This document shows, one piece after another, positions 26,361 through 45,551 of a stretch of DNA of 64,000 bases. The notes below the pieces were generated by a model, which made no database searches, was not told the DNA's origin, and was given only the letters and a program-made list of their open reading frames with translations. Where the stretch lies: positions 290,108-354,107 of the forward strand of contig CAWFMJ010000015.1 in NCBI GenBank assembly GCA_963816715.1, written 5' to 3'. Both the position numbers and the translations under genes were made by a program. This DNA comes from an uncultured delta proteobacterium. GTDB lineage: Bacteria > Desulfobacterota > Syntrophorhabdia > Syntrophorhabdales > WCHB1-27. Each line of letters begins with the position of its first letter. The first letter of the stretch is position 1.

Positions 26361-26397
26361 GGGAAACTTATTTATTATAGTAAAGTGAAAATAAATC

Positions 26398-26725: not shown

Positions 26726-26732
26726 GTGCACT

Positions 26733-29785: not shown

Positions 29786-29944
29786 GCCCGTCCCTTAAGA
29801 ATCGAATACGAAGGCGCCTTCTACCACATAACGGCGAGGGGAAACGAGAGAAGGAGGATCTTTCTTTCCAAGGCCGACCATGAGAAGTTCCTTGCCAATC
29901 TCCGCATGTCAGCCGAGCGCTTTTTTGTCGGCCCCGCGAGCTGA
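29786..29944 (+). pseudogene. N-terminal fragment of an IS200-like/REP-associated tyrosine (Y1) transposase. It is truncated after ~53 aa.
   Basis: 'MARPLRIEYEGAFYHITARGNERRRIF' matches the N-terminal signature of Y1 transposases. The ORF ends where the vapC gene begins. Confidence 0.55.
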
Positions 29945-29948
29945 CTTA

Positions 29949-30344: not shown

Positions 30345-30531
30345 AGTGACGCAGCTCCTCAGCGGTAAGATCGAATTCCAGCTTCCCTTTCATGGACTTG
30401 ATCTTTTCCACCCTGCGGCGTCTGAGATAGTCGGAAATGGCTTCCTTTACAGCCGTCGTTTTGTTCTTCGCGTGGGTCTCAGCCAAAAGCTCATCGAGCA
30501 TATTCTTCTCAATAGTTACTGTGCTCCTCAT
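30334..30531 (-). CDS. vapB: VapB-type antitoxin (65 aa).
   Basis: It is a small protein immediately upstream of the PIN toxin and overlapping it, which is typical type II TA architecture. Confidence 0.65.
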   Translation of the reverse strand: MRSTVTIEKNMLDELLAETHAKNKTTAVKEAISDYLRRRRVEKIKSMKGKLEFDLTAEELRHYDR

Positions 30532-30989
30532 TGATCACACTCCTATTGTAAAACTATGCTACATGATAGCACATAAGTCTTGCAGACTGCAATGTTGAAA
30601 TGCTGCATATGCAATAGGAGCGCTATTTTATCCGCTACCTTCCACTGGAGCGCTCCTTACCTCCTGTTCCTGCGTCATCATTACTACTTTCATTCCGGAT
30701 GCACGAGAACAAACATAGAACTGAAGACGATGCACCGGAAGTGCTAATGCCAAGCTGTCGTCGAATTTCGGCATACGAGATGCCCGGTTCTCTTGCCAGA
30801 GTGAAGGCAAGCTCTGATCTGAGAGGCGGGGAAGATGGGGTCAGGCAAAAAAACGTATCGGGCAGCACAAGCTCCTCTCCGTTTCCGGAAATTCGATCCC
30901 CCTGGGTTGAGAAAGAGAAAGACCCCGGATAGGTCGCCGCAAGGCAACCTATCCGGGGCGTCAAGCCGGGGCCGAAGAACCGCCTGTTG

Positions 30990-33041
30990 TTATTCTGTTA
31001 TGTCCGCGGCAGGCTGGCTTGACGAGCCATCTGTGGTAGATGGCAGAACATTCGTCACAGCCCCGGGCACGAGTTTGTGCATCAGGATCGCCGCCAACCC
31101 TTCCAGGACTCCGCCGCCCGAATCGCTGCCGCCAATGACCAGGGTATTGGGCATGAATGGAACGGTGCTCTTTGAGAGAGCCTCGACGGCGTTCACGAGA
31201 GCCGTGGCGCCCTGGCCCAGTGCCGCGACCTGCTTTTGATAGGCCTCAGCCCTGGCCAGACCGATGGCCCTGACTTGAGCGCCCTGAGCGGCGCCGGTCC
31301 GTTCGATGTAGGTGGCCTCGCCGTCGGCTTCGGCTTTGCGGGCTTCGGCGTTATTCTTCTTGATGTCGACACCGACTGCCGACTGAGCAAGTCCCGCCTG
31401 CATGTCGGCGGTTCCTTTGGCCTTCTCGGTCTCGACGCGCTGGTCCTGGGCCTGCCGCTGCATCTTGAAGGTCTCGACTTCCTGATGGGCGACCTCGCGC
31501 TGAGTCAGCACCGTGACCAGCGGCGCCGGGTAAATCACGTCCTGAATATAGACGCCCCGAGTCTCGATTTCGTACTCGGCGAGTTTTTCTTGTATATACT
31601 TCATTGCTTCTTCCTGAACGATCTGGCGCGTCTGGATAAACTTGATGGCTTCCATACCGCCGATCTTGTCGCGGAAGAGGTTGCCGACGGCCGCCTGCAG
31701 GACTTCGTTCACCAGGTTTTCCATGGAGCCGACCATGGAAATAACCCGCGGCGCCCTGGTGTCGGGAACGTGAATGAGCACCTGGAGATCGATGGAAAAG
31801 ACGAAGCCCTCATTGCTTTTGGCAATGATGGGCTCGAGGCGTGCATCGAGGCCATGAGCCCCGGTGACGTCTTTGGCCCAGTCGAGCTTGAGGATGGCCG
31901 TGAGGACCACCTTGGCGTCGTAAATCCGGGGGTTGATCGGGTACTTTCCGGTTCTCAACGCTTCCTGCCAGATGCCCTGATGGCCGGGTCGCACCAAACT
32001 CCCGAACTTGAAGCCCACGCCTGAAATATCCTGAGTCGGCAAACCGACATAGGCTTTGATGACGCCGACCTGGCCCTGTTCGACAACCAGCATCGGGACC
32101 TGTTCGACGCGTACCAGGAATGGATTCAGGTTATAGGCGCCGTAGAGAAGCGGGTCGTGCTGCAGGCCGATCTTCCCGCCGGCTTCCAGGAACTTTTGGA
32201 AATCCTGGTAGTTGTTGTGCAGATCGTTCTTGCTGCCAAGGATTAAGCCCATTAGTTGGAAGTCGGTGACGTCGTCTTTCTTTTCAAGTTCTTTGATGTC
32301 CTCAAACCCTCCGAGCCGACTGGCGATGGCGCCGGCCGGCAGCGGTTCGCCATCGAGCGTCGTGACGATGCCTATCATGTCCAGGACTTTTCCGCCCTCA
32401 GCGGGTTTTGGGGCAATGCGGGTGACCTCCAACTGCATTGCTTCAAGGCCGAAAGCTGCGGCCGTAAGCCCGTCTTTTGCGTCAGCGAGTTTCCTGTATT
32501 CGTCGGAAACCGGCACGCCAAAGATCTGCGGCTTGGTGATGACCAAAAAAGCCACGGGGTGAATCGGCGCCAGCGTTCCCGGAGAGAGAACCGGCCTCTG
32601 CACGCCTTTTTGGCCGCCCTTTTCAATAAAGATCTTGAGATCGGTGAAATTACCGAACTCGGATTTGTAGACGCCCGATTTGGCGCCGATAGGCGTTGGC
32701 TCGCCGACTTGCGCGATGACCACGCCGATTTGGCCCGCCGGCACCTGAACCCACGGATGTTTTGTGACGTCGTAGATGAGGCAGAACTTGAAACGGAGGC
32801 CGGGCATAAGCAACTCGGCCTGGTAACCGGCTTCCCCCACGAAAGCCACGGGGTTGTTGCCGGGCAGCTTCGCTCCAAACCGCTTACGGACCAGTCCGAT
32901 CTGGGTCGGGCCGATGCTGTAGATCGATTTGAAAAACACGACCAGCACGAAAAGCACGATCAAAACGCCCAGCACACCTTCCGGAAACGCATAAGACGTT
33001 GTTTCTATCATTGCTTCGTTCTCCTTTGTGCGGACTTCCAT
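30990..33041 (-). CDS. Flotillin-like SPFH/band-7 family membrane protein (YqiK-type).
   Basis: It has an N-terminal TM helix ('LGVLIVLFVLVVFF'), an SPFH domain ('IGLVRKRFGAKL...'), and a long Ala/Glu/Gln-rich coiled coil ('AEARKAEADGEATYIERTGAAQGAQVRAIGLARAEAYQKQVAALG'). Confidence 0.8.
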   Translation of the reverse strand: MEVRTKENEAMIETTSYAFPEGVLGVLIVLFVLVVFFKSIYSIGPTQIGLVRKRFGAKLPGNNPVAFVGEAGYQAELLMPGLRFKFCLIYDVTKHPWVQVPAGQIGVVIAQVGEPTPIGAKSGVYKSEFGNFTDLKIFIEKGGQKGVQRPVLSPGTLAPIHPVAFLVITKPQIFGVPVSDEYRKLADAKDGLTAAAFGLEAMQLEVTRIAPKPAEGGKVLDMIGIVTTLDGEPLPAGAIASRLGGFEDIKELEKKDDVTDFQLMGLILGSKNDLHNNYQDFQKFLEAGGKIGLQHDPLLYGAYNLNPFLVRVEQVPMLVVEQGQVGVIKAYVGLPTQDISGVGFKFGSLVRPGHQGIWQEALRTGKYPINPRIYDAKVVLTAILKLDWAKDVTGAHGLDARLEPIIAKSNEGFVFSIDLQVLIHVPDTRAPRVISMVGSMENLVNEVLQAAVGNLFRDKIGGMEAIKFIQTRQIVQEEAMKYIQEKLAEYEIETRGVYIQDVIYPAPLVTVLTQREVAHQEVETFKMQRQAQDQRVETEKAKGTADMQAGLAQSAVGVDIKKNNAEARKAEADGEATYIERTGAAQGAQVRAIGLARAEAYQKQVAALGQGATALVNAVEALSKSTVPFMPNTLVIGGSDSGGGVLEGLAAILMHKLVPGAVTNVLPSTTDGSSSQPAADITE

Positions 33042-33556
33042 TTATGGCTGCGGCCTTCACACTTCCTCCTCGCAAGTGTTGGGTAAATGTCCTGATCTCG
33101 GGGCAGACCGCCCGAACAGGGGGTTGAACACGACTCTCCAGGAGAGACTATACCGCTTTCCGCGCACTTTCTCTATCAGTCATGGCGGCGCAGCCGCCGA
33201 CGCCGGAACCGGCAGGGCCTCGCCTGTCCCTCCAAGGGCGCCCACAAGACTCATGTGAACGTAAATGAATGCAAACAAATAACCAATTTTACCGGCAGCA
33301 GAGAGGTGGTCGAGGTATCAAGCTTATCGTCAAACCGGCGCAAACCGCCGGAAAGGGCAACGTGGACAGATCTCCGTGACGGTAGAAGCAGGTTCCTCGG
33401 CTTTGTGAACAACCCCGTTGTACATAGCTGATGAATTCTTTGTTCCCGTAATCAGGTAAAAAGGCATATCGAGCAGTAATTCCGTCGCCGGGCTTGATGC
33501 CCACGGCAGCGGTAATTATAACCATACTGAGGGACAGCAGAGGATGCGAGGAGGTC

Positions 33557-34000
33557 ATGAAAATGGTGAGGAACTTCGACCATTGCACGGTCGTGGTGCG
33601 CGATATTCAAGCGGCAAAAGAATTCTTTGCGCTCCTGGGGTTTCGGGAGGATTATGCAGGCGTCGTATCGGGGGATAAGTTCTCGGCGTATATGGGAGTG
33701 GACGACATCGAGGCGGATCATGTCACGTTAGTTCTTCCGGACTCTTCTCCGCGGCAGGAGATTCAACTGCTCAGATATCACAAGCCCATGCCGGTTGTCG
33801 ATCCCAACATTGAGCGACTCGACAAGGTGGGTTACAACCATCTTTGCTTTGCCGTCGACGACATAGAGCAGGAAGTAAAGCGGCTCAAACGGGAAGGCGT
33901 CAGGTTCTTGAATGAGATCATGGAATTCAGGGGCAGAAAATTGACATTTGTTTCCGGTCCTGAAGGGATCACGCTGGAGTTGTCGGAGAGGCTGAGATGA
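33557..34000 (+). CDS. VOC/glyoxalase-family protein.
   Basis: RBS GAGGAGG. 'FDHCTVVVRDIQAAKEFFALLGF...YNHLCFAVDDIEQEVKRLKREGVRF' is a glyoxalase fold signature. Confidence 0.7.
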   Translation: MKMVRNFDHCTVVVRDIQAAKEFFALLGFREDYAGVVSGDKFSAYMGVDDIEADHVTLVLPDSSPRQEIQLLRYHKPMPVVDPNIERLDKVGYNHLCFAVDDIEQEVKRLKREGVRFLNEIMEFRGRKLTFVSGPEGITLELSERLR

Positions 34001-34299: not shown

Positions 34300-35205
34300 C
34301 TACTCGGAGGCAGGCTTTTTTGGCACGGGGCCGGCGAGCCTTCCTGCTTTGAGGAGCGTCCGGAAAAGCTCTTCCACTACCTCATCCTCGTCGCCGTCAA
34401 CGATCCTGCCCTGTCGTTTCTTTACCGACCCCTCTAAGAGCTGCATCCTGCGCTCGTAACCGGGGAGGGAGGAATCCGGCGCGGGAAGGTATTTGGTCTT
34501 AGGAACCGGATCGCGCAAAGGGCCGACGGCGAGGAGGCTGTTCGCCTTTCTGACGAGGGCTGAAGGGATGCCCAGATCGGCAAGATCAAAGCAGGGAACT
34601 GATTGCTCGGTTGTTTCAAGGCGGGCTGCAAAAGAAGCAGGAGGGCGCAACTCCTCGCCCGGCTGAAAGGTGATTACGGCGGGCGTGGAGCACTGAACAC
34701 GCTGGAGCGAGCCGTCGGAAAGCTGCTTCGTCGCGATGAGGGCATCTTGCTCTGAGACTCTCAAAGCGGTTGCAGCCGCGATGCAGGGCACATCGAGCAT
34801 GGAAGCGACGAGGACGCCCAGTTGCCCGGAGCCGGCATCGATGCGGCACACGCCGGCGAGGATGAGGTCGAAGGAAAGAACTTGCGCCAGCCGGGAGAGA
34901 ATAACAGCTTTTGCCCTTGTCTGAAGGTCGCGCGCTTCTTCGTTCCAAATGCGGTAGGCCTCGTCGCACCCGGCGGCAAGTCCCTCCCGGAGAAAAATCT
35001 CGCCCTCGACCGGCCCGAGGTGCGCGAGAACAACCGTGCCCTCGGCCGCCCGTTCCCTGATATCCAGGGCCTGGTCGATGGCCGTCCGGTCCGCGGGGTT
35101 GAGCATCAGGACGTTCCTCTCGTCCTTGAGACGCCCCGTCGATGAATAAAACTCCATCGGGACCTTCACATCGTACGCGCCTTCGATAAAAACAAGTATC
35201 CTCAC
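34300..35205 (-). CDS. etfB: Electron transfer flavoprotein beta subunit (EtfB/FixA).
   Basis: 'MRILVFIEGAYDV...' with typical EtfB length and motifs. It is the last gene of the etfA-fixC-fixX-etfB run. Confidence 0.75.
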   Translation of the reverse strand: MRILVFIEGAYDVKVPMEFYSSTGRLKDERNVLMLNPADRTAIDQALDIRERAAEGTVVLAHLGPVEGEIFLREGLAAGCDEAYRIWNEEARDLQTRAKAVILSRLAQVLSFDLILAGVCRIDAGSGQLGVLVASMLDVPCIAAATALRVSEQDALIATKQLSDGSLQRVQCSTPAVITFQPGEELRPPASFAARLETTEQSVPCFDLADLGIPSALVRKANSLLAVGPLRDPVPKTKYLPAPDSSLPGYERRMQLLEGSVKKRQGRIVDGDEDEVVEELFRTLLKAGRLAGPVPKKPASE

Positions 35206-35224: not shown

Positions 35225-35500
35225 TTAGGTCATCCGGTATCGTACACCGCGCCCGTTCTTCGGGTAGCGCCACTCCAGGGCGTTCGATTCGCAGACGACG
35301 AGGCAGGTCCCGCACTCGAGGCACGCCTCATAGGCGAAGTCTATGCGCTCCTTCCCTTCGTTCCACTCGTAGCAGCGGGCCGGGCAGACAAAGGTGCACG
35401 CCCGGTGGCTGCATTGCCGGCACGTCTCGTTGTTGACGCGGATGTGGGCCTCGCCGTCGACGTCGTAGCTCACCAGCTCAAAAATGTTGTCGGTGATCAT
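35225..35500 (-). CDS. fixX: FixX-type ferredoxin-like protein.
   Basis: Two Cys clusters: 'CRQCSHRACTFVCPARCY' and 'CLECGTCLVVCE'. It is 91 aa and sits between fixC and etfB. Confidence 0.75.
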   Translation of the reverse strand: MITDNIFELVSYDVDGEAHIRVNNETCRQCSHRACTFVCPARCYEWNEGKERIDFAYEACLECGTCLVVCESNALEWRYPKNGRGVRYRMT

Positions 35501-36786
35501 AGGAGCGATCTCCCGCCTTTCAGCGCGTCGAGGAGGAGGCGGGCCGGCTGGTCGGCGCTCCGCGCCGCATCCCAGACGGTCCGGCCGAAGCCCTTTTTCG
35601 GCGTGCCGTCCGACCGGTAGAGTTCCTCCAGCACGGCGCCAACCAGGCGCGGGTAAACGGAAAAGAGCCGGTCTTCGTGCATGAGGTCCGCCGATCTCCT
35701 GAAGGTCTTCATATCTTTGAGGACAAAGCTCTCTTTCAGCCTGGCCTCGTATCCGGAGAGCTGCCTGGCCGAGAAGTCGCCTTTTTCAAAGGCTTCGACG
35801 GCTGTTTCACCGGCAAGAAAGCCTGAAGTAACGGCGAGGTTCATCCCTTCCTGATTGAGCCCGTTGGTATAGCACAGACCGGCCGCGTCGCCCGCGAGAA
35901 GCAGACCCGCCATGGAGAGCCGAGGCACGGCGTCGTAGCCCCCCTCCGGCAGCAGGTGAGCGGAATACTCGACAAGGCGCGCTCCTTTGAGCAGCTTTGC
36001 GACAGGTGCCTGCGCGACAAACCGCTCGAAAAGATTGTAGGGCGCAATCCCCCGCTCTTTAAGGGAATCGAGGTGACAAACGAGGCCCGCCGACAGGGTT
36101 TCTGTCTGGGTGTAGATAAAGCCCCCGCCCCGCACGCCTTCCGTGCAGCCGAGGAACTCGTGACTGGCCCCCTGACGCCGTACGAGATTGAACCGCTCGT
36201 TGATCGCCTCTTCGGAAAGGCGGAAAAGCGCCTTGACGCCGAGCGCCATGTCTGCCGCCAATGCCCGCGGGACCAGACCGATCTGCTTCGCCGTGAGGGA
36301 GAGGACTCCGTCGCAGGCGATAACCAGGGGCGAACCGATTTCCTTTCCGTTTACCCGCACGCCCTGCACCCGCTCGCCGCTGACCAGCAGCTCTTCCGCA
36401 AGCGCTCGGGCAACGGGGCGCACGCCGGCTTTTTGCGCCGCTTGGGCGAACCAGCGGTCGAAGATCGGGCGATAGAGGGTGCAGCCGTTATAGGGAGGAT
36501 GATCGAACTCCGCGGATTCGAAGACAACAGAGGCGGCCGACGCGTCCGAAAGGACGGTCAGGGTTCTTTTTACCACGTGCCGCTCCCAGGGCGCCTCTTC
36601 CCAAAAACGGGGAACGAGCTCTTCGATGACCGGAGAGCGGGGGAACATGCCGCCGAACATGTTCTTCGAACCCGGCGTCGCCCCGCGCTCGACCAGCAAC
36701 ACCGCGAGTCCCTTCCGGGCTGCCGTCAACGCCGCTGCAGCCCCGGCAGGGCCGGCGCCGACCACGATGACGTCATACTTCTTCAT
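35497..36786 (-). CDS. fixC: FixC-type FAD-dependent oxidoreductase (ETF:quinone oxidoreductase-like).
   Basis: 'MKKYDVIVVGAGPAGAAAALTAARKGLAVLLVERG' is an FAD Rossmann motif. It is 429 aa and overlaps its neighbours. Confidence 0.8.
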   Translation of the reverse strand: MKKYDVIVVGAGPAGAAAALTAARKGLAVLLVERGATPGSKNMFGGMFPRSPVIEELVPRFWEEAPWERHVVKRTLTVLSDASAASVVFESAEFDHPPYNGCTLYRPIFDRWFAQAAQKAGVRPVARALAEELLVSGERVQGVRVNGKEIGSPLVIACDGVLSLTAKQIGLVPRALAADMALGVKALFRLSEEAINERFNLVRRQGASHEFLGCTEGVRGGGFIYTQTETLSAGLVCHLDSLKERGIAPYNLFERFVAQAPVAKLLKGARLVEYSAHLLPEGGYDAVPRLSMAGLLLAGDAAGLCYTNGLNQEGMNLAVTSGFLAGETAVEAFEKGDFSARQLSGYEARLKESFVLKDMKTFRRSADLMHEDRLFSVYPRLVGAVLEELYRSDGTPKKGFGRTVWDAARSADQPARLLLDALKGGRSLL

Positions 36787-37774
36787 GATCTTCCCTGTAG
36801 CGCTTGATCCGCTCGATCAGCTTAGGCAGCAAGGAGCGCACGTCCCCCACGAAACCGGCGTCGGAGAAGCCGAACACCGGCGCCTTCGGGTCTCTGTTGA
36901 CGGAGAGCACCTCTTTGGCGTCCTGAATGCCCGCGACATGATGGGGCGAGCCGGAGATCCCCAGGGCGAGGTAGAGATCGGGGGCGACCGTCTTGCCCGT
37001 CTGCCCGACCATCCGCACCTTTGGGACCAGCCCATCGTCAACAACGGGCCGGGTGGCTGCCGTGGCGGCGGCGAGGAGATCGGCCAGCTCTTCCGCGAGG
37101 GCAAGACTTTCCTCGGAGCCTGCGCCGATGCCGATCAAGGTCTTTGCATAAAGAATATCGACCGTTCGATAATCGGCCGGAATCGTCTCCAGGGGCTCGG
37201 TGGCGCGAAGGCTTGCGGGAACATCGACGGAGAGATCGACAATACTCAAAGACGGCGCAGTAGCTGCTGCTTTCCGTGGGTAGAGGCCGTCCGTCCTGAT
37301 GGAGGCGATCTGGGGCACATCCACGGCATAGGATATTTCCTGTCCGAGCTGGCCGCCGTAAACGAGGCGCGCGTAAACGATGCGCCCCTCTTCCACGCGC
37401 AGATCGACGCAATCCATTGCGGCGGCGCTGTCGAGCAGCCAGGCGAGCCTCGGGGCAAGCTCGCTTCCCCGATCGGTATGGGCGAACAGGAGAAGCCGAA
37501 AGGGCATCGTTTTGAGGACTTCCGCCGCGGCCCAGGCAAAGGTCTCGCCGGCGTACCGGGAAAGGCGGCTGCCGCCGACCCGGATCAACCGGGAGGCGCC
37601 GTATCCCTCGATGGTCTCCGGCGCCGGCGCGGGGCTTCCGACGCTCAGGGCGCTTAAGGACCCGCCGGTGAGACGGGCGATCCTCGCCCCCTCGGCGACG
37701 AGCCCCTTATTGATTTCATCGCCCTTTTCTCCGGAAGGCTCGAGGAAGACGACAATGCCGGGCATGCCGCTCAT
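36773..37774 (-). CDS. etfA: Electron transfer flavoprotein alpha subunit (EtfA/FixB).
   Basis: 'PDLYLALGISGSPHHVAGIQDAKEVLSVNRDPKAPVFGFSDAGFVGDV' is the EtfA FAD-binding signature. Confidence 0.8.
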   Translation of the reverse strand: MSGMPGIVVFLEPSGEKGDEINKGLVAEGARIARLTGGSLSALSVGSPAPAPETIEGYGASRLIRVGGSRLSRYAGETFAWAAAEVLKTMPFRLLLFAHTDRGSELAPRLAWLLDSAAAMDCVDLRVEEGRIVYARLVYGGQLGQEISYAVDVPQIASIRTDGLYPRKAAATAPSLSIVDLSVDVPASLRATEPLETIPADYRTVDILYAKTLIGIGAGSEESLALAEELADLLAAATAATRPVVDDGLVPKVRMVGQTGKTVAPDLYLALGISGSPHHVAGIQDAKEVLSVNRDPKAPVFGFSDAGFVGDVRSLLPKLIERIKRYREDHEEV

Positions 37775-39720
37775 ACCCGCCTGCCTGCCGTGTAGCCTTC
37801 ATGGATGGCCATGTCCGCCTTCCGGGGGGCAACGCAATCTCCCGCCCGGTAGAGCTCCTTGACTTTCCCCTTCAGGGCAAAATAAAGTCCGTCGTCCACC
37901 ACGTTGCCCATGGCCGCCACGACGCTGTCGCAGGGGAAGACGGCTGATTCGTTCGAATAGACGTTGATGCCGAAGACCTCGTTCTCGCGAATCTCGAGGA
38001 CATAAAAATCCGTCGTGAATGTCACGCCTTTTTTCAGGAGCCTTTGCTTCATGAGGGTGATGTCCTGGGTAGGGCCGAGGTCGCCGCCGACAAAGAACGC
38101 CGTAGTTGTCACGTGAACTTTTTTGCCGAGGTCGGCCAGGTATTCGATGGCGCTCGTCGCCCGGTGGCCGCCGTCGTCGTCGATGAAGAGGATTCTCTCA
38201 CCCAGCTCCGCCTCTCCTTTCAATACCTGGGGAACGGTGCAGGCCCTCTCGCCGCCGGGTATGGCGGGCCGCAACGGCTGCGAGCCGGTGGCGACGATGA
38301 CGGCGTCGGGGTTTTGCTCCAGCACGAATTCGGGCGTCACGGTCTGGCCGAGTACGGTTCGTATGCCGAGGGCTTGCAGTTGGTTCCTCTCGTTCCGGAT
38401 GATAGCGCCGAACTCTTCCCTGCCCGTCCCTTTCATGGCAAGGACAATTTGGCCGCCCAAGGCTTCTTCCCGCTCGTAGAGCGTCACATCGTGGCCCCGC
38501 AGATGAGCGATCTTCGCCGCCCACATGCCCGCCGGGCCGCCGCCGATCACCATCACCCGCTTTCTCCACAGCGATTTCGGCAGACGCAGCTCGTCTTCAT
38601 CCTTCTCCCTGCCGACAAGCGGGTTCTGGACGCACCCTATCGACCGGTTGAAGGCAATCCGGCCGTAGCAGTTTTGATTGCAGGCCACGCAGAAGCGTAT
38701 CTCTTCGAGTTTTCCTTCCCGTGCCTTGAGGGCCATATTGGGGTCGCAGATCTGGGCCCGCACCATGCCGATCATGTCTGCCTGCCCGTTCGCCAGGACC
38801 TTCTCCGCAAGGAGCGGATCGTTGATGCGTCCTGTTGCAAAGACGGGAAGCCGGACCGCCTCCTTGATGGCCGCGGCGAGAGGCACGGCGTATCCTAGGG
38901 GCATGTGCATGCTGCCGCCGACGAGGTAGAGGTTATGAAAGGTGGAAAGGGTGAGGTCGATGAAATCGATTTCTCCCGTTCCTTCCAGTCGTCGCGCGAT
39001 CTCTTTGGCGTCATTGAGGGTGATGCCGCCCCAGGAGGTCATTTCATCGGCGCAAAGGCGCACGCCGAGGGTGAAATCACGACCTATTGTCCTTCGAACG
39101 GCGGCGACCAGCTCCAGGGGAAAACGCATCCGTTTCTCGAAAGTCCCGCCATAGTCGTCGGAACGCAGGTTGGTGAGGTCGGACATGAACTGCCGGGCAA
39201 GGGAGCTATGGCCGAACTGGAGCTCAATGCCGTCAAAGCCGCCTTCCCGTACGTTGAGGGCCGAGCTGCAAAAATAGTCGATCACCTCCGCTATGTCTTC
39301 AATCTCCATGGCTTTCGGCGTTTCCCGGTAGATGGGGTCGGGTATTGCCGACGGCGCCCACACGGGCAGCCTGGACAGGGCGCCGCTGCATTGCCCCCCG
39401 TTGTGGTTCAACTGGGCGAAGATCTTTGTCTCGTATTCATGGACCTGCCGCGTGATCCTCTTGTAGCCCGGCAGAACTTCGGGCCTGAAGGCTTCGATGA
39501 GCTTCTCGTAGGCCCGGTCCGTCGGATGGACCGACTGTTCCTCCGTGATGATCAGCCCCGCCCCGCCCTTCGCCCTTGCCCCGTAATAAAAGGCGTGGCG
39601 CTCCGAAGGGACGCATTCTTCCGCGAAACTCGTGAGGTGGGCGGAAAAGGAGATGCGGTTCGGGACCCCGGTCCTGCCGATCCTCAAGGGCGAAAAAAGA
39701 TAGTTAAACTGTCCTGGCAT
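37771..39720 (-). CDS. Old-yellow-enzyme family flavoenzyme. It has an FMN TIM barrel plus a C-terminal FAD/NAD(P)-binding domain and is 2,4-dienoyl-CoA/enoate reductase-like.
   Basis: The start is at ATG 39720 (RBS AGGGAG). The OYE N-terminus is 'FSPLRIGRTGVPNRISFSAH...GGAGLIITEEQSVHP'. The C-terminal Rossmann motif is 'VMVIGGGPAGMWAAK'. Confidence 0.75.
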   Translation of the reverse strand: MPGQFNYLFSPLRIGRTGVPNRISFSAHLTSFAEECVPSERHAFYYGARAKGGAGLIITEEQSVHPTDRAYEKLIEAFRPEVLPGYKRITRQVHEYETKIFAQLNHNGGQCSGALSRLPVWAPSAIPDPIYRETPKAMEIEDIAEVIDYFCSSALNVREGGFDGIELQFGHSSLARQFMSDLTNLRSDDYGGTFEKRMRFPLELVAAVRRTIGRDFTLGVRLCADEMTSWGGITLNDAKEIARRLEGTGEIDFIDLTLSTFHNLYLVGGSMHMPLGYAVPLAAAIKEAVRLPVFATGRINDPLLAEKVLANGQADMIGMVRAQICDPNMALKAREGKLEEIRFCVACNQNCYGRIAFNRSIGCVQNPLVGREKDEDELRLPKSLWRKRVMVIGGGPAGMWAAKIAHLRGHDVTLYEREEALGGQIVLAMKGTGREEFGAIIRNERNQLQALGIRTVLGQTVTPEFVLEQNPDAVIVATGSQPLRPAIPGGERACTVPQVLKGEAELGERILFIDDDGGHRATSAIEYLADLGKKVHVTTTAFFVGGDLGPTQDITLMKQRLLKKGVTFTTDFYVLEIRENEVFGINVYSNESAVFPCDSVVAAMGNVVDDGLYFALKGKVKELYRAGDCVAPRKADMAIHEGYTAGRRV

Positions 39721-41059
39721 AGTCGTCGGCTCCCTGGCTTGGTTGATGCCGTACGTCCTCAGGCGTTGCGACGAGACATTCCGGGTCCGGCGTTTCAAGC
39801 GACTGGGTCAAAAAGTGCGCTACCGCCGGGCAGCCCCCGTGGCAGAGGTCGAACCGGACGCATCCCTCGCAGGATTTCTTGCGGACATTCCGGACCGAGT
39901 GAAAGACTGTGGCGTCGCGCCAGATGGATTCGAGCGGCTCGGCGCCGACGTTTCCCGCGCGGAAGGCCGCTTCCTGGAGGAATGCGCAGGGATAGAGGCC
40001 GCCGTCGGGCGCCACGCTGCAGGTCATCCGTGCGGCGCCGCACATAGTAAGGCCCAACGCGCGCCGGTCTTCCCGGGTAATGGAAAAGAAAGAGTCGCCC
40101 GTGAGCACTTCTTTCCGGGCGCTCAGAAAGTCTGAAAGGCCCTCCAGTTGAGCCGCATTCAGCCGAAGCTCGTGCCACGCCCTCTTGGCGGCGCCCGAAG
40201 GACGGAACCGGGAAAGTCGCGTCTTCATTCCGTATCCGGCGCCGAGGCTGCAAATCTCCGGTATCTCGTGGAAGTTGAGACCGGTCACGACGGTGTTGGT
40301 GCTCACTCCCGGGATCGTGTGTCGGCTGAGAAGTTGGATGCCCGCCATGATCTTCTCGAAGGTCCCTTCACCCCTCAGCCGGTCGTTGGTCGCCGCCGAC
40401 GCCCCGTCAAGGCTGACCTGAAGGTAGAGCAGGTCCATCCGCTTCAGCCGCTCCACGAGCGCGTCGTCGAGCGTCGTGCCGTTGGTGCTCACGCACGTGG
40501 TGATCTCTTTTTTGTGGGCGTATTCGAGGATATCGAGAAAATCAGGACGCAGGAAAGGCTCCCCGCCGCCGAAGTTGATCTGAAAAACCCCCAGGGAATG
40601 AAGATGATCGATAAAACGGCAGCACTGATCGAAGTCGAGTTCCGGGCCCGCGTGGTCGCCGATGTCGGCGGAGAGGCAGTGGCGGCAGCGGAGATTGCAA
40701 CGGCTCGTGATTTCCCAGGTGACGTTTACCGGCGCTCGAAGCGGTTCGCCGTAGGCGTGTCGCTCTTTTGTGCCGGACGGCGACCGGCCCGCGCGGGAAA
40801 CAGCGTTGTGGCGAATGTCTTCGTCAGGCAGAGAGACCGGCGCGAGAAGACTCCTCGCCATAAGGGCCCTGAGGACGGAATTAGCGTTGCCCGGTTCGCT
40901 GGCAAGCCGTAGGGCGTTCCGCCCATTTCGGGCGGTGCAGAGCAAATCCGGGCGCCTCACGAAGGTGAGCATGCCGTCGCTGCTCTTGTAGAAAAGGAGG
41001 CCGAACCCTTCCTCTCTCACTCTGACGCCCGGAAGAAGATAATAGATGCTCTCTCCCAT
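39704..41059 (-). CDS. mftC: Radical SAM/SPASM peptide-modifying enzyme. It looks MftC-like and carries an N-terminal MftB/PqqD-like peptide-recognition (RRE) domain.
   Basis: The rSAM motif is 'SRCNLRCRHC'. The SPASM cysteines are 'CGAARMTCSVAPDGGLYPCAF...CEGCVRFDLCHGGCPA'. The N-terminus 'YYLLPGVRVREEGFGLLFYKSSDGMLTFVRRPDLL' matches the PqqD/MftB-type RRE pattern. It lies 28 nt downstream of an MftA-like peptide gene. Confidence 0.7.
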   Translation of the reverse strand: MGESIYYLLPGVRVREEGFGLLFYKSSDGMLTFVRRPDLLCTARNGRNALRLASEPGNANSVLRALMARSLLAPVSLPDEDIRHNAVSRAGRSPSGTKERHAYGEPLRAPVNVTWEITSRCNLRCRHCLSADIGDHAGPELDFDQCCRFIDHLHSLGVFQINFGGGEPFLRPDFLDILEYAHKKEITTCVSTNGTTLDDALVERLKRMDLLYLQVSLDGASAATNDRLRGEGTFEKIMAGIQLLSRHTIPGVSTNTVVTGLNFHEIPEICSLGAGYGMKTRLSRFRPSGAAKRAWHELRLNAAQLEGLSDFLSARKEVLTGDSFFSITREDRRALGLTMCGAARMTCSVAPDGGLYPCAFLQEAAFRAGNVGAEPLESIWRDATVFHSVRNVRKKSCEGCVRFDLCHGGCPAVAHFLTQSLETPDPECLVATPEDVRHQPSQGADDYARTV

Positions 41060-41087
41060 CAGCGTCCTTTCCTGCCTGTTCGTCTGC

Positions 41088-41210
41088 TCAGTACACGCCG
41101 CAAATGCCGTCGACCGTTAGGTCCTCGATCTCTATTTCTTCGAGGATGTCGGTAATTTCGCTGTCCGATGCCGCTTCCGTGGTCGCAGGCGTTTTCCCTT
41201 CCCGATTCAT
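41088..41210 (-). CDS. mftA: Mycofactocin-precursor-like peptide (40 aa) ending ...VDGICGVY.
   Basis: The ATG is preceded by 'AAAGGGGG' at 9 nt. The peptide is 'MNREGKTPATTEAASDSEITDILEEIEIEDLTVDGICGVY'. Its acidic leader and C-terminal DGxCGVY match the MftA signature. The longer ORF to 41270 starts at a GTG with no RBS. Confidence 0.65.
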   Translation of the reverse strand: MNREGKTPATTEAASDSEITDILEEIEIEDLTVDGICGVY

Positions 41211-41356
41211 CGCGCATTGCCCCCTTTGTCCGTTAGATCGCTGCTCGTTCTCTCCACTATTTGTTTCCACTATATTGATACAAGCCCCGTGTCCCCGTCA
41301 AGCAAAATGACAAACCCGGAAGTTGCGCGCTCTCGCCGGAAGGCCCGGCGGACGCG

Positions 41357-42622: not shown

Positions 42623-43399
42623 CTATTTGCCCAACACTATGCCCGTCGGGTCGATTTCCTCCCGCAATATCTTCAGATACTCCGCCGGGGGCGTGGGGCT
42701 CGTTGCTGCTTTGCCGGGCACGATGATCTCGAAGCCGCTGTTCTCTTTCATCGATTCGAGGGTTTCGCCGGGATGGAGCGAGATGAGCTCGACCGTTTTG
42801 AGTTCTGAATGGAAACCGTAGATGCCGATCTGGGTGACGACGCGGTATGGTCCCGTGCCTCTGGGGAGCCCTGCGCGCTCGCGGGCGCCGGGGCCGTCGA
42901 GATAGCCGGCGGTGGTGAGAAAGTCTACCTTGTTGACGAAGGTCTGCTTCGACTGCTTCGCCGCGATGATAATGAGCTTCTCGGAAAAGGAGGCGACGTC
43001 CGGCGCGCCCCCCGATCCCGGCAGCCTCGTCCTGGGGTGTTCATGATCGCCGATGACCGTCGTGTTGATGTTCCCGTAGCAGTCCATTTGGGCAGCGCCG
43101 AGAAAACCGTAATCAATGTAGCCCGCCTGGGCCATTGACATAATGTCGTGCATTGAAGAGGCCAACACCGCCTTATGGAAAGTCCGTCCCTCTCCCACTG
43201 AAATGGGCAGCTCCGGTATGTAGGGACCTACGCCGCCCGCCTCGAAAGCGATGAGGAGATTCGGCGCGTGGGTCTTCTGGGCGAGCACCGCCGCGATGAT
43301 AGGCAGTCCCGTGCCGACAAAAACCGATTTCTTGTCTTCGAGCATCAGCGAACCCAGGTAGGCCAGGTATTCGCGTATATTGTAACCGTTGTTCGTCAT
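42623..43399 (-). CDS. gctB: CoA-transferase subunit B (glutaconate CoA-transferase GctB-like).
   Basis: The true start is 'MTNNGYNIREYLAYLG'. The long upstream ORF extension overlaps gctA and is Arg-rich junk. It has family-I CoA-transferase B-subunit motifs. Confidence 0.7.
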   Translation of the reverse strand: MTNNGYNIREYLAYLGSLMLEDKKSVFVGTGLPIIAAVLAQKTHAPNLLIAFEAGGVGPYIPELPISVGEGRTFHKAVLASSMHDIMSMAQAGYIDYGFLGAAQMDCYGNINTTVIGDHEHPRTRLPGSGGAPDVASFSEKLIIIAAKQSKQTFVNKVDFLTTAGYLDGPGARERAGLPRGTGPYRVVTQIGIYGFHSELKTVELISLHPGETLESMKENSGFEIIVPGKAATSPTPPAEYLKILREEIDPTGIVLGK

Positions 43400-43446
43400 A
43401 GCGCATCCCCCTCGATTTCTCTGTTCCGTCGTTCTCTGATGACGCC

Positions 43447-44457
43447 TTATTTTCTCCACGGCGCTATCATGGGCTCTCGCATGAACTCCCGGCGCTTGAG
43501 ATAGTTGAGCTGCTTGACGCCGCCGCAGAGCTCCAGGTACTCGTCGAAGTCGTGGACGCCGAAAACATACTTTTGGAGGTACGCCTGAACTCCCTCCGCG
43601 GTCTTTGCGAGCCCGAGCCACTCCGATATGTGCTCTTCGTCGTAATAGTACCTGCCGGGCATCTGGCAGGGATGGCTGCCATAAGGCGCCTCGACGACTG
43701 CATCGACGCAGAAGAAGGGGATGACCGTTTTCCACGGCTCCTCGCGGATCGCGTCGCTGCTCACGATCTCTTCCGTCGTGATGATGAGCCTCCTCGCACA
43801 CCGGGAAAGCTCGAAGTCTTCGACCGTGCTGCCGTCTATCTGGGCGTTCCCGTAGATATCGCAGCGATGGACGTGAATGAAGGCGCAGTCCGGATAGGCG
43901 GCCGGAATGAGGACGATCGGCTTGCCCGTAAAAGGGTCCGTGGCGGTCTTGAAACAACTGTGCTTCAGAGTGTCCGTGCCCATCAGCGTGCGGGCGGGGA
44001 TGAAGGGAATGCCCATCATGCCCGCGAGGAACCGCCATTGATAGGCCGCATTGCTGATCTCGGCGGCGATCTTGCATTCTCCCGATTCCACCATTCGCTT
44101 TCCGGCCGGAGAAAGACCCCTCAGTTCGTGGCCGAAGGAGTAAGCGGGCTCGACCTTGTTGACGCAGCCCGAACCGATGAGGACGTCGAGGTCGTGCACG
44201 GCGGTTTTGCCCGCCATAGCGAGGTCGCGCTTCTTCTGCCTGATGATCTCGTAAATGATCGCCATGGAGACCCGGACGTGGCCGAACCCCCCGCTCGCGA
44301 TGTACTCCCCGTCATGGACGAACTGCTCGACAGCCTCCTTGGCGGTCATGAGCTTGCTCTTCAACTCGCGGGATTTGTTGTTCTTGACCCATTCCCTGGC
44401 TTCGTCGGGGTCGTGCCAGCCGATCATCTGGCCGAGACCTTCGTCTAAGATTTCCAT
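43447..44457 (-). CDS. gctA: CoA-transferase subunit A (glutaconate CoA-transferase GctA-like).
   Basis: 'MEILDEGLGQMIGWHDPDEAREWVKNNKSRELKSKLMTAKEAVEQFVHDGEYIASGGFG'. It is 336 aa and paired with the B subunit. Confidence 0.7.
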   Translation of the reverse strand: MEILDEGLGQMIGWHDPDEAREWVKNNKSRELKSKLMTAKEAVEQFVHDGEYIASGGFGHVRVSMAIIYEIIRQKKRDLAMAGKTAVHDLDVLIGSGCVNKVEPAYSFGHELRGLSPAGKRMVESGECKIAAEISNAAYQWRFLAGMMGIPFIPARTLMGTDTLKHSCFKTATDPFTGKPIVLIPAAYPDCAFIHVHRCDIYGNAQIDGSTVEDFELSRCARRLIITTEEIVSSDAIREEPWKTVIPFFCVDAVVEAPYGSHPCQMPGRYYYDEEHISEWLGLAKTAEGVQAYLQKYVFGVHDFDEYLELCGGVKQLNYLKRREFMREPMIAPWRK

Positions 44458-44756
44458 TCTGTTCCCCCCTTCATCACGGTATGTTCAGAGTAATGTCTAT
44501 TGCACGGATCCATCGTTAGCGGCGGGATAGAAAAAGCAATCCACGGAGGACGGGCGTTCACAGGGGTTGGGATAGTTGGCAATCCTTTTATGACGGCGCT
44601 TGTTGACGAACCGCGTTGCGTTGGCGCCGGCGGTTCTCTCCGGCGATGATCGCCGAAGGGCGTGCTTCCTCATAACTCCCCCCTCTTTTTCGTTCCCCCC
44701 ACGCGTTGTTTCTTTGTTCTCCTCCTTAGGGCATCGCTTCCCTTCCTCTCCTCTGT

Positions 44757-45344
44757 TCAGATCAAAAAGTCGGAACGGGAGAGACGGGCTTTGGGCATCG
44801 GCGCATCGGCAGCGTAGCCGACAGGACAAAGCGCAGTCGGCACAAGGTGCGCAGGCAGACCGAGTACCCGGGAGACCTGAGCGGGGTCGAAGCCCGTCAT
44901 GGGGCAGGAGTCGAGGCCAAGAGATTTTGCGCCGTATACGGCGTTGGAGAGGGCGAAAAAGACCTGCTGCTGCGCCCAGGCCGGAGTGAGATTTGCCTTG
45001 ATCTGCGTTGCCATGCCCATTGCGTGCGCCAGCCATTCAGCAGGAACGCCCGCTTCCTTCATCGATTTCTCTGCCTTCGCGAGCACGTCCTCAACGTCTG
45101 TGTTCGCGCACAAAACAAGCAAGTGCGAGCAGTTGACGGCCTGCGTCTGGCCGAAGACCGCCGGGCCAAGCATTTCTCGCGTCGCCTGGTCCCTTATTAC
45201 CTTGATTTTCCAGGGCTGGAGATTGAGGGCTGACGGCGCCATGCGAATAAGATCGATAAGCTCGTCGATTTTTTCCTCCGGCGCTTTCTGTCCGGTGAAA
45301 GCCCTCGCCGCGTACCGTTTCATCACCACGTCTTTGTATTCCAT
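44757..45344 (-). CDS. Nitroreductase-family protein.
   Basis: The start is at 'MEYKDVVMKRYAARAF'. Typical nitroreductase fold motifs are present. Confidence 0.7.
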   Translation of the reverse strand: MEYKDVVMKRYAARAFTGQKAPEEKIDELIDLIRMAPSALNLQPWKIKVIRDQATREMLGPAVFGQTQAVNCSHLLVLCANTDVEDVLAKAEKSMKEAGVPAEWLAHAMGMATQIKANLTPAWAQQQVFFALSNAVYGAKSLGLDSCPMTGFDPAQVSRVLGLPAHLVPTALCPVGYAADAPMPKARLSRSDFLI

Positions 45345-45551
45345 GGAGCCTCCTCCCTGCTTTCTTGTAAACCGTAAACCAAAGATGTGAGGCCCGATCG
45401 CGGAATTCCCCCGGCCGCCCTCTTTCACTGATTATATAATCAGTGCCCGATGCTTTGCAAGAAAAGAAGACGCACAACGCATCGCGAAACGCGCACCGTG
45501 AAACGCGAAACTCAATGACCAACAGCAGCCAAAGCAGGAGTGGAAGATTCC

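What the first reader, a model, noticed from the sequence alone, without database searches (positions are those of the whole stretch)
39704..41270. Minimal mycofactocin-like module outside Actinobacteria: MftA-like peptide (…VDGICGVY) plus rSAM/SPASM enzyme with a fused MftB-like domain, and no mftD/E/F nearby
The 40-aa peptide has an acidic leader and the C-terminal DGxCGVY signature of mycofactocin precursors. The adjacent radical SAM/SPASM protein starts with a PqqD/MftB-like RRE segment in the same polypeptide, whereas MftB is usually a separate gene. The usual partners are not in the flanks. These are a creatininase-family peptidase (MftE), an LldD-like FMN dehydrogenase (MftD) and a glycosyltransferase (MftF). 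Instead the flanks hold dinB on one side and an OYE-like FMN reductase + EtfAB/FixCX on the other. This is either a split or variant mycofactocin system, or a related Val-Tyr cross-linked RiPP feeding a different redox partner.
Basis: partly seen in the sequence, partly recalled or inferred. Interest (0 to 1): 0.7.

Follow-up and report, generated by a model that had tools for sequence, protein, structure and literature searches.

The report
Anaerobe-type mycofactocin operon, fused MftB-MftC
This is a real seven-gene operon for a database-recognised but biochemically unstudied anaerobe version of the redox cofactor mycofactocin; its only unusual features are two maturation proteins fused into one and a missing sugar-adding enzyme.

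Summary
A 40-aa peptide ending VDGICGVY (41210→41088, minus strand) passes NCBIfam's curated "variant-type mycofactocin precursor" model. The next gene (41059→39704) is a true MftB–MftC fusion, and each half passes its curated cut-off.

It is not a minimal module. The "flanking" OYE-like gene is TIGR03997, "mycofactocin system FadH/OYE family oxidoreductase 2". Its ATG lies 17 nt inside the rSAM gene. It is followed by tightly packed etfA-fixC-fixX-etfB.

The order mftA-mftB-mftC-OYE_2-etfA-fixC-fixX-etfB(-mftF) recurs across dozens of the 88 related loci and on RefSeq-annotated Streptomyces and Haloterrigena plasmids. None of the 88 loci holds mftD, mftE or mftG. On plasmids, OYE/ETF clusters and mftD clusters are mutually exclusive.

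The window differs in two ways. MftB and MftC are fused, which is rare but forms a small natural clade. mftF is missing, and a low-GC island with an IS sits where mftF normally lies.

I infer from context only that OYE_2/ETF/FixCX replaces MftD and/or MftG. The source is probably a Syntrophorhabdales genome.

Verdict: a new member of a known, curated kind. Interest is modest.

The parts
41088..41210 (-). mftA, variant-type mycofactocin precursor (40 aa, acidic leader, core ...EIEIEDLTVDGICGVY)
   Evidence: NF040489 scores 32.5 bits (cut-off 30). The peptide is on record as a called 40-aa gene. The same core is found in about 60 related loci, with variation mostly at third codon positions.
39704..41059 (-). 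mftBC fusion (451 aa). Residues 1-80 are the MftB/RRE domain (41059-40820). Residues 81-105 are a linker (40819-40745). Residues 106-451 are the MftC radical SAM/SPASM domain (40744-39704, stop included).
   Evidence: TIGR03962 scores 316.7 bits (cut-off 265). TIGR03967 scores 35.6 bits (cut-off 33) on the N-terminus. Invariant cysteines are C121/C125/C128 plus seven C-terminal ones. The AlphaFold model has pLDDT 81.8; its best full-length PDB matches are the RRE-fused maturases SuiB and CteB.
37771..39720 (-). Mycofactocin-system FadH/OYE family oxidoreductase 2: an FMN TIM barrel, a 4Fe-4S motif C344/C347/C351/C363, and a GGGPAG dinucleotide domain. The ATG lies 17 nt inside the mftBC reading frame.
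   Evidence: TIGR03997 scores 912.7 bits (cut-off 793). Pfam finds Oxidored_FMN plus Pyr_redox_2. The 17-nt overlap is identical in 23 loci. Homologues are 70-86% identical and widely carry this name.
36773..37774 (-). etfA (FixB-like electron transfer flavoprotein alpha subunit); overlaps the OYE_2 stop by 4 nt
   Evidence: Pfam finds ETF plus ETF_alpha. NF038209 mft_etfA scores 122 bits, below its cut-off of 240. The position is conserved.
35497..36786 (-). fixC (ETF:quinone oxidoreductase-like FAD protein); overlaps etfA by 14 nt
   Evidence: Best NCBIfam matches are PRK10015 (321.9 bits) and FixC PRK10157 (286.5 bits), both below their curated cut-offs of 466 and 610. Pfam finds ETFQO_UQ-bd. 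The position is conserved.
35225..35500 (-). fixX (ferredoxin-like 4Fe-4S protein); overlaps fixC by 4 nt
   Evidence: Pfam finds Fer4_7 and Fer4_ETF_QO. The best NCBIfam match is FixX PRK15449, 42.5 bits, below its cut-off of 166.
34300..35205 (-). etfB (FixA-like electron transfer flavoprotein beta subunit), the last gene of the operon in this window
   Evidence: Pfam finds ETF. TIGR04503 mft_etfB scores 72.5 bits, below its cut-off of 200. The position is conserved. In relatives it is followed by mftF, which is absent here.

Best explanation
The locus is a seven-gene operon, mftA-mftBC-OYE_2-etfA-fixC-fixX-etfB. It encodes the OYE/ETF-type ('variant-type') mycofactocin system and probably comes from a Syntrophorhabdales anaerobe.

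Shown here, by curated models and conservation:
- the gene identities;
- the MftB-MftC fusion;
- the operon structure;
- the absence of mftD, mftE, mftF and mftG from the window.

Inferred from established MftC biochemistry:
- The N-terminal MftB/RRE domain binds the acidic leader of MftA.
- The rSAM/SPASM domain oxidatively decarboxylates the C-terminal Tyr and cross-links it to the penultimate Val, giving a C-terminal lactam.
- The fusion simply makes the normally non-covalent MftB:MftC complex covalent, as in SuiB and CteB.

Inferred from gene context only:
- OYE_2 acts at the redox-active carbon of the lactam-derived product (FMN, then 4Fe-4S).
- It passes electrons to the co-encoded EtfAB and on to FixCX and quinone.
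- It thereby takes the place of MftD (premycofactocin synthase), of MftG (mycofactocinol reoxidation), or of both. Systems of this type always lack these two.

Not explained: how the modified core is released without MftE, and whether it is glycosylated in this genome.
For: Identity:
- Curated-model scores pass their cut-offs for the variant MftA, MftB, MftC and OYE_2.

Operon structure:
- Starts and stops overlap by 17, 4, 14 and 4 nt.
- The 17-nt mftC/OYE_2 overlap is identical in 23 loci.

Conservation:
- OYE_2 starts within 400 nt of mftC in 52 of 65 loci that have room for it.
- The full order ZnADH-A-B-C-OYE_2-etfA-fixC-fixX-etfB-mftF holds in most long loci.
- Gene clustering across 32 long loci finds no other conserved partner.

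Replacement of MftD/MftG:
- tblastn with MftD (three queries), MftE and MftG finds nothing in 802 kb from 89 sources. MftC hits 88 of them and MftF hits 32.
- Among 12 mftC-bearing plasmids, the 4 with mftD have no OYE_2-like hit at 39% identity or more, and the 8 with such a hit have no mftD ortholog.
- Streptomyces yangpuensis has A-B-C-OYE_1-OYE_2-etfA-fixC-fixX-etfB-F-E. Haloterrigena has OYE-etfA-fixC-fixX-etfB next to F-C-B2-A and E. Neither has D or G.
- Canonical clusters have D, E, F and G but no OYE/ETF.
- In one locus the precursor gene sits directly upstream of OYE_2, with no mftB/C in between.

OYE_2 features:
- The Tyr proton donor of FadH and NCR is an invariant Ser173. The motif Q168-x-x-H171-S-S is invariant in 125 homologues.
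- The third domain lacks GxGxxG, as in TMADH and histamine dehydrogenase. By my own knowledge, TMADH uses ETF as its acceptor.

Fusion:
- The fused proteins (window, L007, P0003, P0002) form one clade, from independent samples.
Against: - No biochemical data exist for any OYE/ETF-type system. The role of OYE_2 rests on gene context and anticorrelation alone.
- The plasmid sample is small, and its six Streptomyces records are related. mftD could be chromosomal in those strains.
- A dedicated ETF plus ETF:quinone module looks excessive for a single biosynthetic step. That favours the recycling reading over the MftD-replacement reading.
- EtfA and EtfB here score below the curated cut-offs for mft_etfA and mft_etfB.
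- MftE is present in the Streptomyces and Haloterrigena clusters but absent here, so release of the core is unexplained.
- mftF is not in the window, so this copy may make an unglycosylated product or an incomplete one.
- Only 64 kb of the source contig (370,586 bases per the collection record) could be read.
Confidence: 0.6

Rival explanations
1. Split canonical system. OYE_2/ETF/FixCX only recycles the finished cofactor, as an MftG analogue. MftD, MftE and MftF are encoded elsewhere in the genome and do the usual biosynthesis.
For: mftF is adjacent in 32 related loci but missing here, so at least one function must lie elsewhere or be lost. The two modules can separate: mftBC-mftF occurs without OYE/ETF (L058 and L064), and mftA-OYE_2 occurs without mftBC. 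A four-gene electron chain suits high-flux recycling.
Against: No mftD or mftE hit in 802 kb around 88 related mftC genes. OYE/ETF-type plasmid clusters keep mftE and mftF in the cluster but never mftD. Haft 2011 already found MftD and MftE not universal in mycofactocin genomes.
Confidence: 0.25
2. A different Val-Tyr cross-linked product. The peptide is cross-linked by MftBC but is never released or deaminated. OYE_2 performs another modification, and the product is not a mycofactocin-type cofactor.
For: The MftC domain is only 36-44% identical to canonical MftC. The precursor fails the canonical TIGR03969 cut-off. No peptidase is conserved in the clusters.
Against: MftC passes the equivalog cut-off, and the core ...DG(I/M)CGVY is the same as in canonical precursors. 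Relatives carry a bona fide MftF (TIGR03965, 362 bits, cut-off 280) and a Zn-ADH closest to the NDMA-dependent/mycofactocin-linked subfamily, although below its cut-off.
Confidence: 0.1
3. A decaying or artefactual locus. The fusion is an assembly frameshift, or the operon is a remnant disrupted by the neighbouring mobile island.
For: A low-GC island with an IS1182 transposase abuts etfB where mftF normally lies. The adjacent Zn-ADH seen in many relatives is also missing. One distant fused relative (L068) has a degenerate MftB half.
Against: All seven ORFs are intact with preserved overlaps. The fusion has an in-frame linker of about 25 aa rather than a shifted overlap. It is shared by a clade of proteins from independent samples: P0002, P0003/L007 and P0004/L001.
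Confidence: 0.05

Closest known systems
Canonical mycofactocin system, mftR-A-B-C-D-E-F(-G), of Mycobacteriales and Streptomyces (for example Tsukamurella tyrosinosolvens plasmid 23, Streptomyces sp. NBC_00080)
   Same: A precursor ending ...DGxCGVY, an MftB RRE, and an MftC rSAM/SPASM enzyme that passes the equivalog model.
   Different: This locus has no MftD, MftE, MftF, MftG or MftR in the window. MftB and MftC are fused. MftC is only about 36-39% identical. The leader motif is EEIEIEDLTVDGICGVY rather than ...VEEVSIDGMCGVY.
OYE/ETF-type mycofactocin clusters already annotated in RefSeq (Streptomyces yangpuensis plasmid; Haloterrigena turkmenica pHTUR01)
   Same: mftA-B-C is linked to a FadH/OYE oxidoreductase, etfA, a FixC-like gene, a FixX-like gene and etfB in the same order, with no mftD or mftG.
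   Different: Those clusters keep mftE and mftF, and have separate mftB and mftC. Streptomyces adds OYE_1. Their ETFs are annotated as mycofactocin-associated, whereas the window's ETFs fall below those cut-offs.
RRE-fused radical SAM/SPASM RiPP maturases SuiB (5V1Q) and CteB (5WGG)
   Same: The domain order is N-terminal RRE, rSAM, then SPASM. These are the best full-length structural matches to the model (TM-score 0.67 normalised to the query).
   Different: Sequence identity is only 16-20%, and the chemistry differs (Lys-Trp or thioether cross-links). In the mycofactocin family the RRE is normally a separate protein.
Trimethylamine dehydrogenase / histamine dehydrogenase, and 2-naphthoyl-CoA reductase / FadH (the three-domain OYE-FeS flavoproteins)
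   Same: An FMN barrel, a 4Fe-4S motif and two Rossmann-like domains. The third domain lacks GxGxxG, as in TMADH and histamine dehydrogenase. An ETF is co-encoded; TMADH's physiological acceptor is ETF (own knowledge).
   Different: There is no Cys for covalent FMN (Leu29). There is no Tyr proton donor (Ser173). The best sequence match, NCR (6QKG), scores only 289 bits. The substrate is unknown.
MftG (GMC oxidoreductase that reoxidises mycofactocinol and feeds respiration; PMC11778925)
   Same: It is the proposed functional analogue, a link from reduced mycofactocin to the quinone pool. It is absent wherever OYE/ETF/FixCX is present.
   Different: The protein families are unrelated, and the analogy is inferred, not tested.

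Membership tests
Mycofactocin system (canonical definition, Haft 2011 / TIGRFAMs) | Short precursor with C-terminal ...CGVY (TIGR03969) | tested here: inconclusive
   The C-terminus VDGICGVY is present. TIGR03969 scores 22.9 bits, below its cut-off of 25. The variant model NF040489 scores 32.5 bits, above its cut-off of 30.
Mycofactocin system (canonical definition, Haft 2011 / TIGRFAMs) | MftB peptide chaperone (TIGR03967) | tested here: met
   Residues 1-112 score 35.6 bits (cut-off 33). The HMM match itself covers only residues 4-44. Alignment with stand-alone MftB proteins shows the full-length domain. Here it is fused to MftC.
Mycofactocin system (canonical definition, Haft 2011 / TIGRFAMs) | MftC radical SAM/SPASM maturase (TIGR03962) | tested here: met
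   316.7 bits (cut-off 265). The CX3CX2C motif and seven further invariant Cys are present.
Mycofactocin system (canonical definition, Haft 2011 / TIGRFAMs) | MftF glycosyltransferase (TIGR03965), reported to co-occur always with MftC | tested here: not met
   No GT2 or MftF lies in the 64-kb window. It is present next to etfB in 32 related loci (362 bits, cut-off 280). The rest of the genome could not be read.
Mycofactocin system (canonical definition, Haft 2011 / TIGRFAMs) | MftD (FMN dehydrogenase) and MftE (creatininase-family peptidase) | tested here: not met
   No hit in the window or in any of 88 related loci at E<=1e-3. Haft 2011 notes that these are not universal.
Mycofactocin system (canonical definition, Haft 2011 / TIGRFAMs) | Product is the Val-Tyr-derived lactam cofactor | not testable with these tools
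   Needs LC-MS or enzymology.
OYE/ETF-type ('variant-type') mycofactocin cluster as curated in NCBIfam/RefSeq | Variant-type precursor (NF040489) | tested here: met
   32.5 bits (cut-off 30).
OYE/ETF-type ('variant-type') mycofactocin cluster as curated in NCBIfam/RefSeq | Mycofactocin system FadH/OYE family oxidoreductase 2 (TIGR03997) next to mftC | tested here: met
   912.7 bits (cut-off 793.15), full length, with its start inside the mftBC stop region.
OYE/ETF-type ('variant-type') mycofactocin cluster as curated in NCBIfam/RefSeq | Mycofactocin-associated EtfA/EtfB (NF038209, TIGR04503) | tested here: not met
   122 bits (cut-off 240) and 72.5 bits (cut-off 200). However, ETF genes occupy the same positions as in Streptomyces and Haloterrigena.
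OYE/ETF-type ('variant-type') mycofactocin cluster as curated in NCBIfam/RefSeq | FixC-like and FixX-like genes between etfA and etfB | tested here: met
   Searches identify them at family level (NCBIfam FixC/FixX scores are below their cut-offs). The same order is seen.
RRE-fused rSAM/SPASM RiPP maturases (SuiB/CteB architecture) | N-terminal RRE in the same chain as the rSAM and SPASM domains | tested here: met
   MftB model hit. Model residues 1-75 have pLDDT 65-84. SuiB and CteB are the top full-length matches.
TMADH / histamine dehydrogenase amine dehydrogenases | Cys forming 6-S-cysteinyl FMN | tested here: not met
   The aligned position is Leu29, invariant in the family.
TMADH / histamine dehydrogenase amine dehydrogenases | 4Fe-4S motif, a vestigial third domain without GxGxxG, and ETF as partner | tested here: inconclusive
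   The motif C344-x2-C347-x3-C351...C363 and a 'DDDGGH' third domain are present, and ETF is co-encoded. Electron transfer was not tested.
FadH / NCR-type ene-reductases | Active-site Tyr proton donor and an NAD(P)H-binding third domain | tested here: not met
   The Tyr is replaced by an invariant Ser173, and the third domain has no GxGxxG.
FixABCX electron-bifurcating ETF complexes | The gene set EtfB/EtfA plus FixC plus FixX | tested here: met
   Pfam and NCBIfam family-level hits. Bifurcation itself cannot be tested here.

The most novel reading that the evidence does not exclude
In anaerobes and other lineages without MftD and MftG, the OYE_2/EtfAB/FixCX module is the missing half of mycofactocin biology. 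A single Fe-S flavoenzyme would dehydrogenate C3 of the lactam. That would both create the redox-active keto-amide without O2 and reoxidise the reduced cofactor. Electrons would go through a dedicated ETF to FixCX and quinone, or into a FixABCX-style bifurcation that yields reduced ferredoxin during syntrophic alcohol oxidation. In the Syntrophorhabdales-type clade, which also lacks MftE, release of the core would need a so far unrecognised route.
Probability: 0.3. Interest if true: 0.65.

Novelty: new member of a known kind. Interest (0 to 1): 0.35.

Why it matters
Mycofactocin is understood only in aerobic Mycobacteriales. There, MftD needs an oxidant and MftG feeds aerobic respiration.

This locus belongs to a large family of clusters that is abundant in metagenomes and mostly anaerobic. 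In them a conserved Fe-S flavoenzyme plus ETF/FixCX stands where MftD and MftG would be. Standard pipelines already name these genes, so the locus is not a discovery of a new system. No paper in the searchable library treats its biochemistry.

The comparison made here gives a concrete, testable hypothesis for how the cofactor is completed and recycled without oxygen. Its two supports are the strict complementarity of MftD/MftG and OYE/ETF, and the conserved overlap that suggests translational coupling of mftC and OYE_2.

The natural MftB-MftC fusion could also be a convenient single-chain enzyme for in vitro work.

Tried and rejected
- Looking up the window's own rSAM protein in the contig index found nothing, although the protein is in the collection. 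The native contig beyond 64 kb could therefore not be read.
- The single genome-contig scan with the fused protein returned only one short contig. A genome-wide search for mftD/E/F in named genomes was not possible.
- The sigma-70 and terminator scan flagged nothing upstream of mftA or after etfB beyond chance. A TTGACG...TATCAA pair at about 41301-41275 is only a weak eye-match.
- Pfam alone does not detect the RRE in the N-terminus.
- A phmmer search of 1.84 billion representatives with the N-terminal 105 aa gave 21 weak hits. About 15 are stand-alone proteins of 75-107 aa; the rest are two of 172-179 aa and four long proteins (793-2024 aa) with weak or fragmentary matches. None is clearly a fused MftBC. 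This shows rarity but gives no count.
- No GVY peptide lies between etfB and mftB in the alternative gene order. In L042 and L044 it lies about 2.7 kb upstream of OYE_2 instead.
- Five literature searches found no paper describing this variant: mycofactocin with MftB fusion, FadH, ETF/anaerobe, old yellow enzyme, syntrophs, or 'variant-type'. The 2019 review could not be fetched by DOI.
- I considered and rejected an anaerobic sulfatase maturase or PqqE identity. Those models score far below their cut-offs.
- I considered and rejected OYE_2 as a classical ene-reductase, because the Tyr donor and the NAD(P)H motif are missing.

Full report
**1. What is there**

All features are on the minus strand. 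A 40-codon ORF (41210→41088) encodes MNREGKTPATTEAASDSEITDILEEIEIEDLTVDGICGVY. An AAAGGGGG ribosome-binding-like run sits 9 nt upstream of its ATG.

Twenty-eight nt downstream starts a 451-aa ORF (41059→39704).

- The peptide scores 32.5 bits against NCBIfam NF040489, "variant-type mycofactocin precursor" (cut-off 30). It scores 22.9 bits against canonical MftA, TIGR03969 (cut-off 25).
- Residues 106-433 of the enzyme score 316.7 bits against TIGR03962, the MftC equivalog (cut-off 265). All other rSAM/SPASM models fall far below their cut-offs.
- The first 112 residues alone score 35.6 bits against TIGR03967, MftB (cut-off 33). Pfam sees nothing there.
- Aligned with stand-alone MftB proteins of relatives, the whole MftB domain is present. 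A linker of about 25 residues follows, and then the normal MftC N-terminus.
- The CX3CX2C motif (C121/C125/C128) and seven further cysteines are invariant in 32 homologues.
- An AlphaFold2 model has mean pLDDT 81.8 (N-terminal domain 65-84). Its best full-length PDB matches are SuiB and CteB, which are rSAM/SPASM maturases with an N-terminal RRE in the same chain. PqqE and anSME match only the C-terminal ~350 residues.

**2. The module is not minimal**

- The ATG of the next gene (39720) lies 17 nt inside the rSAM reading frame.
- That 649-aa protein scores 912.7 bits, full length, against TIGR03997, "mycofactocin system FadH/OYE family oxidoreductase 2" (cut-off 793).
- It is followed by etfA, fixC, fixX and etfB. 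The first three junctions overlap by 4, 14 and 4 nt; a 19-nt gap separates fixX from etfB.
- dinB and the CoA-transferase genes upstream are unrelated.
- No creatininase, FMN_dh or GT2 protein is encoded anywhere in the window.
- tblastn with canonical MftD, MftE, MftF and MftG finds nothing in the window.

**3. Comparison with relatives**

Homologues of the MftC part are numerous in metagenomes at 57-70% identity. Nearly all are unfused proteins of 345-356 aa. Named ones come from Syntrophorhabdales and Spirochaetes MAGs.

I collected 88 related loci.

- Most long loci share the order Zn-ADH, mftA, mftB, mftC, OYE_2, etfA, fixC, fixX, etfB, mftF.
- OYE_2 begins within 400 nt of mftC in 52 of 65 loci that have room for it.
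- The exact 17-nt overlap recurs in 23 sources, the window included.
- The glycosyltransferase is a true MftF: TIGR03965, 362 bits, cut-off 280.
- The Zn-ADH is closest to the NDMA-dependent subfamily linked to mycofactocin, but scores below that cut-off.
- Clustering all ORFs of 32 long loci reveals no further conserved partner and no peptidase.
- A second gene order exists: OYE_2-etfA-fixC-fixX-etfB-mftB-mftC…mftF.
- The two modules can also separate. mftBC-mftF occurs alone. In one locus the precursor gene lies directly upstream of OYE_2 with no mftB/C in between.
- The precursor core ...(I/V)(L/I)EEIE(I/V)EDL(T/A)VDGICGVY occurs in 59 distinct nucleotide versions. Substitutions are concentrated at third codon positions: 527, against 129 and 31.

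**4. The fusion**

- Fused proteins are the window's, P0002, P0003/L007, P0004/L001, and a distant L068.
- In a neighbour-joining tree of the MftC domain, the window groups with L007, P0003 and P0002. L001 is nearby and L068 is far away.
- The fusion is therefore a natural, rare and probably recurrent event, not an obvious assembly artefact.
- A search of 1.84 billion representatives with the N-terminal 105 residues returned mostly stand-alone MftB-size proteins and no clearly fused MftBC.
- Functionally, the fusion should make the known MftB:MftC complex covalent. This is an inference.

**5. What replaces MftD, MftE and MftG**

- tblastn with three MftD sequences, one MftE and one MftG found nothing in 802 kb from 89 sources. 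MftC hit 88 of them and MftF hit 32.
- Among the 12 plasmids in PLSDB that carry a true mftC, four have an mftD ortholog: Tsukamurella, Mycolicibacterium chubuense, Streptomyces NBC_00080 and Thermomicrobium.
- The other eight instead carry an OYE_2-like gene: six Streptomyces and two haloarchaea.
- Annotated examples:
  - S. yangpuensis: A-B-C-OYE_1-OYE_2-etfA-fixC-fixX-etfB-F-E.
  - Haloterrigena: OYE-etfA-fixC-fixX-etfB next to F-C-B2-A and E.
  - Canonical: R-(G)-A-B-C-D-E-F(-G), without OYE/ETF.
- The OYE/ETF/FixCX module is therefore complementary to MftD and MftG.
- Haft (2011) had already noted that MftD and MftE are not universal, and that the system occurs in Geobacter, Pelotomaculum, Desulfotomaculum, Chloroflexi and a haloarchaeon.
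- MftG is the enzyme that reoxidises mycofactocinol and feeds respiration in mycobacteria.

**6. OYE_2 anatomy**

- The best solved relatives are 2-naphthoyl-CoA reductase, FadH, histamine dehydrogenase and TMADH.
- The motif Q168-x-x-H171-S172-S173 is invariant in 125 homologues. The Tyr proton donor of FadH and NCR is Ser.
- The Cys that makes covalent FMN in TMADH is Leu.
- The 4Fe-4S motif is complete in the window. Its second Cys is Asp in 107 of 125 homologues.
- The third domain lacks a GxGxxG and resembles the vestigial domain of TMADH and histamine dehydrogenase.
- Together with the co-encoded ETF, this argues against an NAD(P)H-dependent ene-reductase. It fits a dehydrogenase that hands electrons to ETF.
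- I infer that it acts on C3 of the lactam, on the amine and/or the alcohol form. That would cover the roles of MftD and/or MftG, with FixCX delivering electrons to quinone.
- This is context-based and untested. How the core is released without MftE is not explained.

**7. This window's peculiarities**

- mftF and the Zn-ADH are missing.
- Immediately beyond etfB, where mftF lies in relatives, the GC content drops from 60-64% to 46-57% over about 22-34 kb.
- That stretch holds an IS1182 transposase, an HTH/ImmA pair, a deaminase-domain protein and an E1-like protein.
- An island insertion may have displaced mftF. This is an inference.

**8. Source organism**

Named homologues of the window's ThiC at 79-87% identity are all from Syntrophorhabdales MAGs. 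The "outside Actinobacteria" statement is correct, but not new.

**9. Verdict**

This is a correct and well-read finding. The system is already captured by curated NCBIfam/TIGRFAM models and annotated in RefSeq and IMG.

It is a new member of a known, biochemically uncharacterised kind. It carries a rare MftB-MftC fusion and a locally missing mftF. No paper in the searchable library addresses this type.

Interest is modest for the locus itself. It is higher for the general hypothesis about the OYE/ETF module.

Noticed in passing
window 22000-34000: A low-GC island (46-57%, against 60-64% in the flanks). It carries a deaminase-domain protein (22233-23615), a ThiF/E1-like protein (24058-25482, minus strand) with an unknown 233-aa partner, an HTH plus ImmA/IrrE M78 pair (26724-27610), an IS1182 transposase (28010-29617, minus strand) and a 683-aa protein with no family hit (30990-33041, minus strand). 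It abuts the etfB end of the operon, exactly where mftF lies in relatives.
   Followed up: partly
window 145-21858: A giant 4327-aa ORF (145-13128) is followed by an RTX-repeat protein, DUF3467, three HlyD-like membrane-fusion proteins (one with a GAF domain) and a 606-aa SecA-like protein (19281-21101). This looks like an unusual secretion locus for a giant adhesin or toxin.
   Followed up: no
window 38680-38692 (OYE_2 residues 344-351) and homologues P0126-P0245: In 107 of 125 OYE_2 homologues the second cysteine of the 4Fe-4S motif is Asp (C-I-A-D-N-Q-x-C). The window and 17 others keep Cys. This suggests an Asp-ligated or 3Fe cluster in most of the family.
   Followed up: partly
L087:1996-6755 (GCA_036705545.1 contig): The closest OYE_2 relative (86% identity) has a variant mftA gene directly upstream of OYE_2-etfA-fixC-fixX, with no mftB/mftC in between. 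This links the precursor gene to the redox module rather than to its maturase.
   Followed up: partly
window 39704-39720 and 22 related loci: The same 17-nt overlap between the mftC stop region and the OYE_2 ATG recurs. It probably explains the conserved MftC C-terminal tail (..Y.RTV), which mirrors the conserved OYE_2 N-terminus MPGQFNY.
   Followed up: yes
L033, L034, L036, L042-L044, L046, L052, L062: A second clade has the order OYE_2-etfA-fixC-fixX-etfB-mftB-mftC...mftF. No GVY peptide lies next to mftB. In L042 and L044 the precursor (…EEVEIEELAIDGICGVY) lies about 2.7 kb upstream of OYE_2.
   Followed up: partly
window 42623-45428, 52736-53281, 57248-58267 and 60352-63006: Other redox or anaerobe-type genes lie nearby: CoA-transferase A/B subunits, two nitroreductase-family proteins, a further radical SAM protein and a molybdopterin aldehyde/xanthine-oxidase-family enzyme. 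None is conserved next to the mft cluster in relatives.
   Followed up: no
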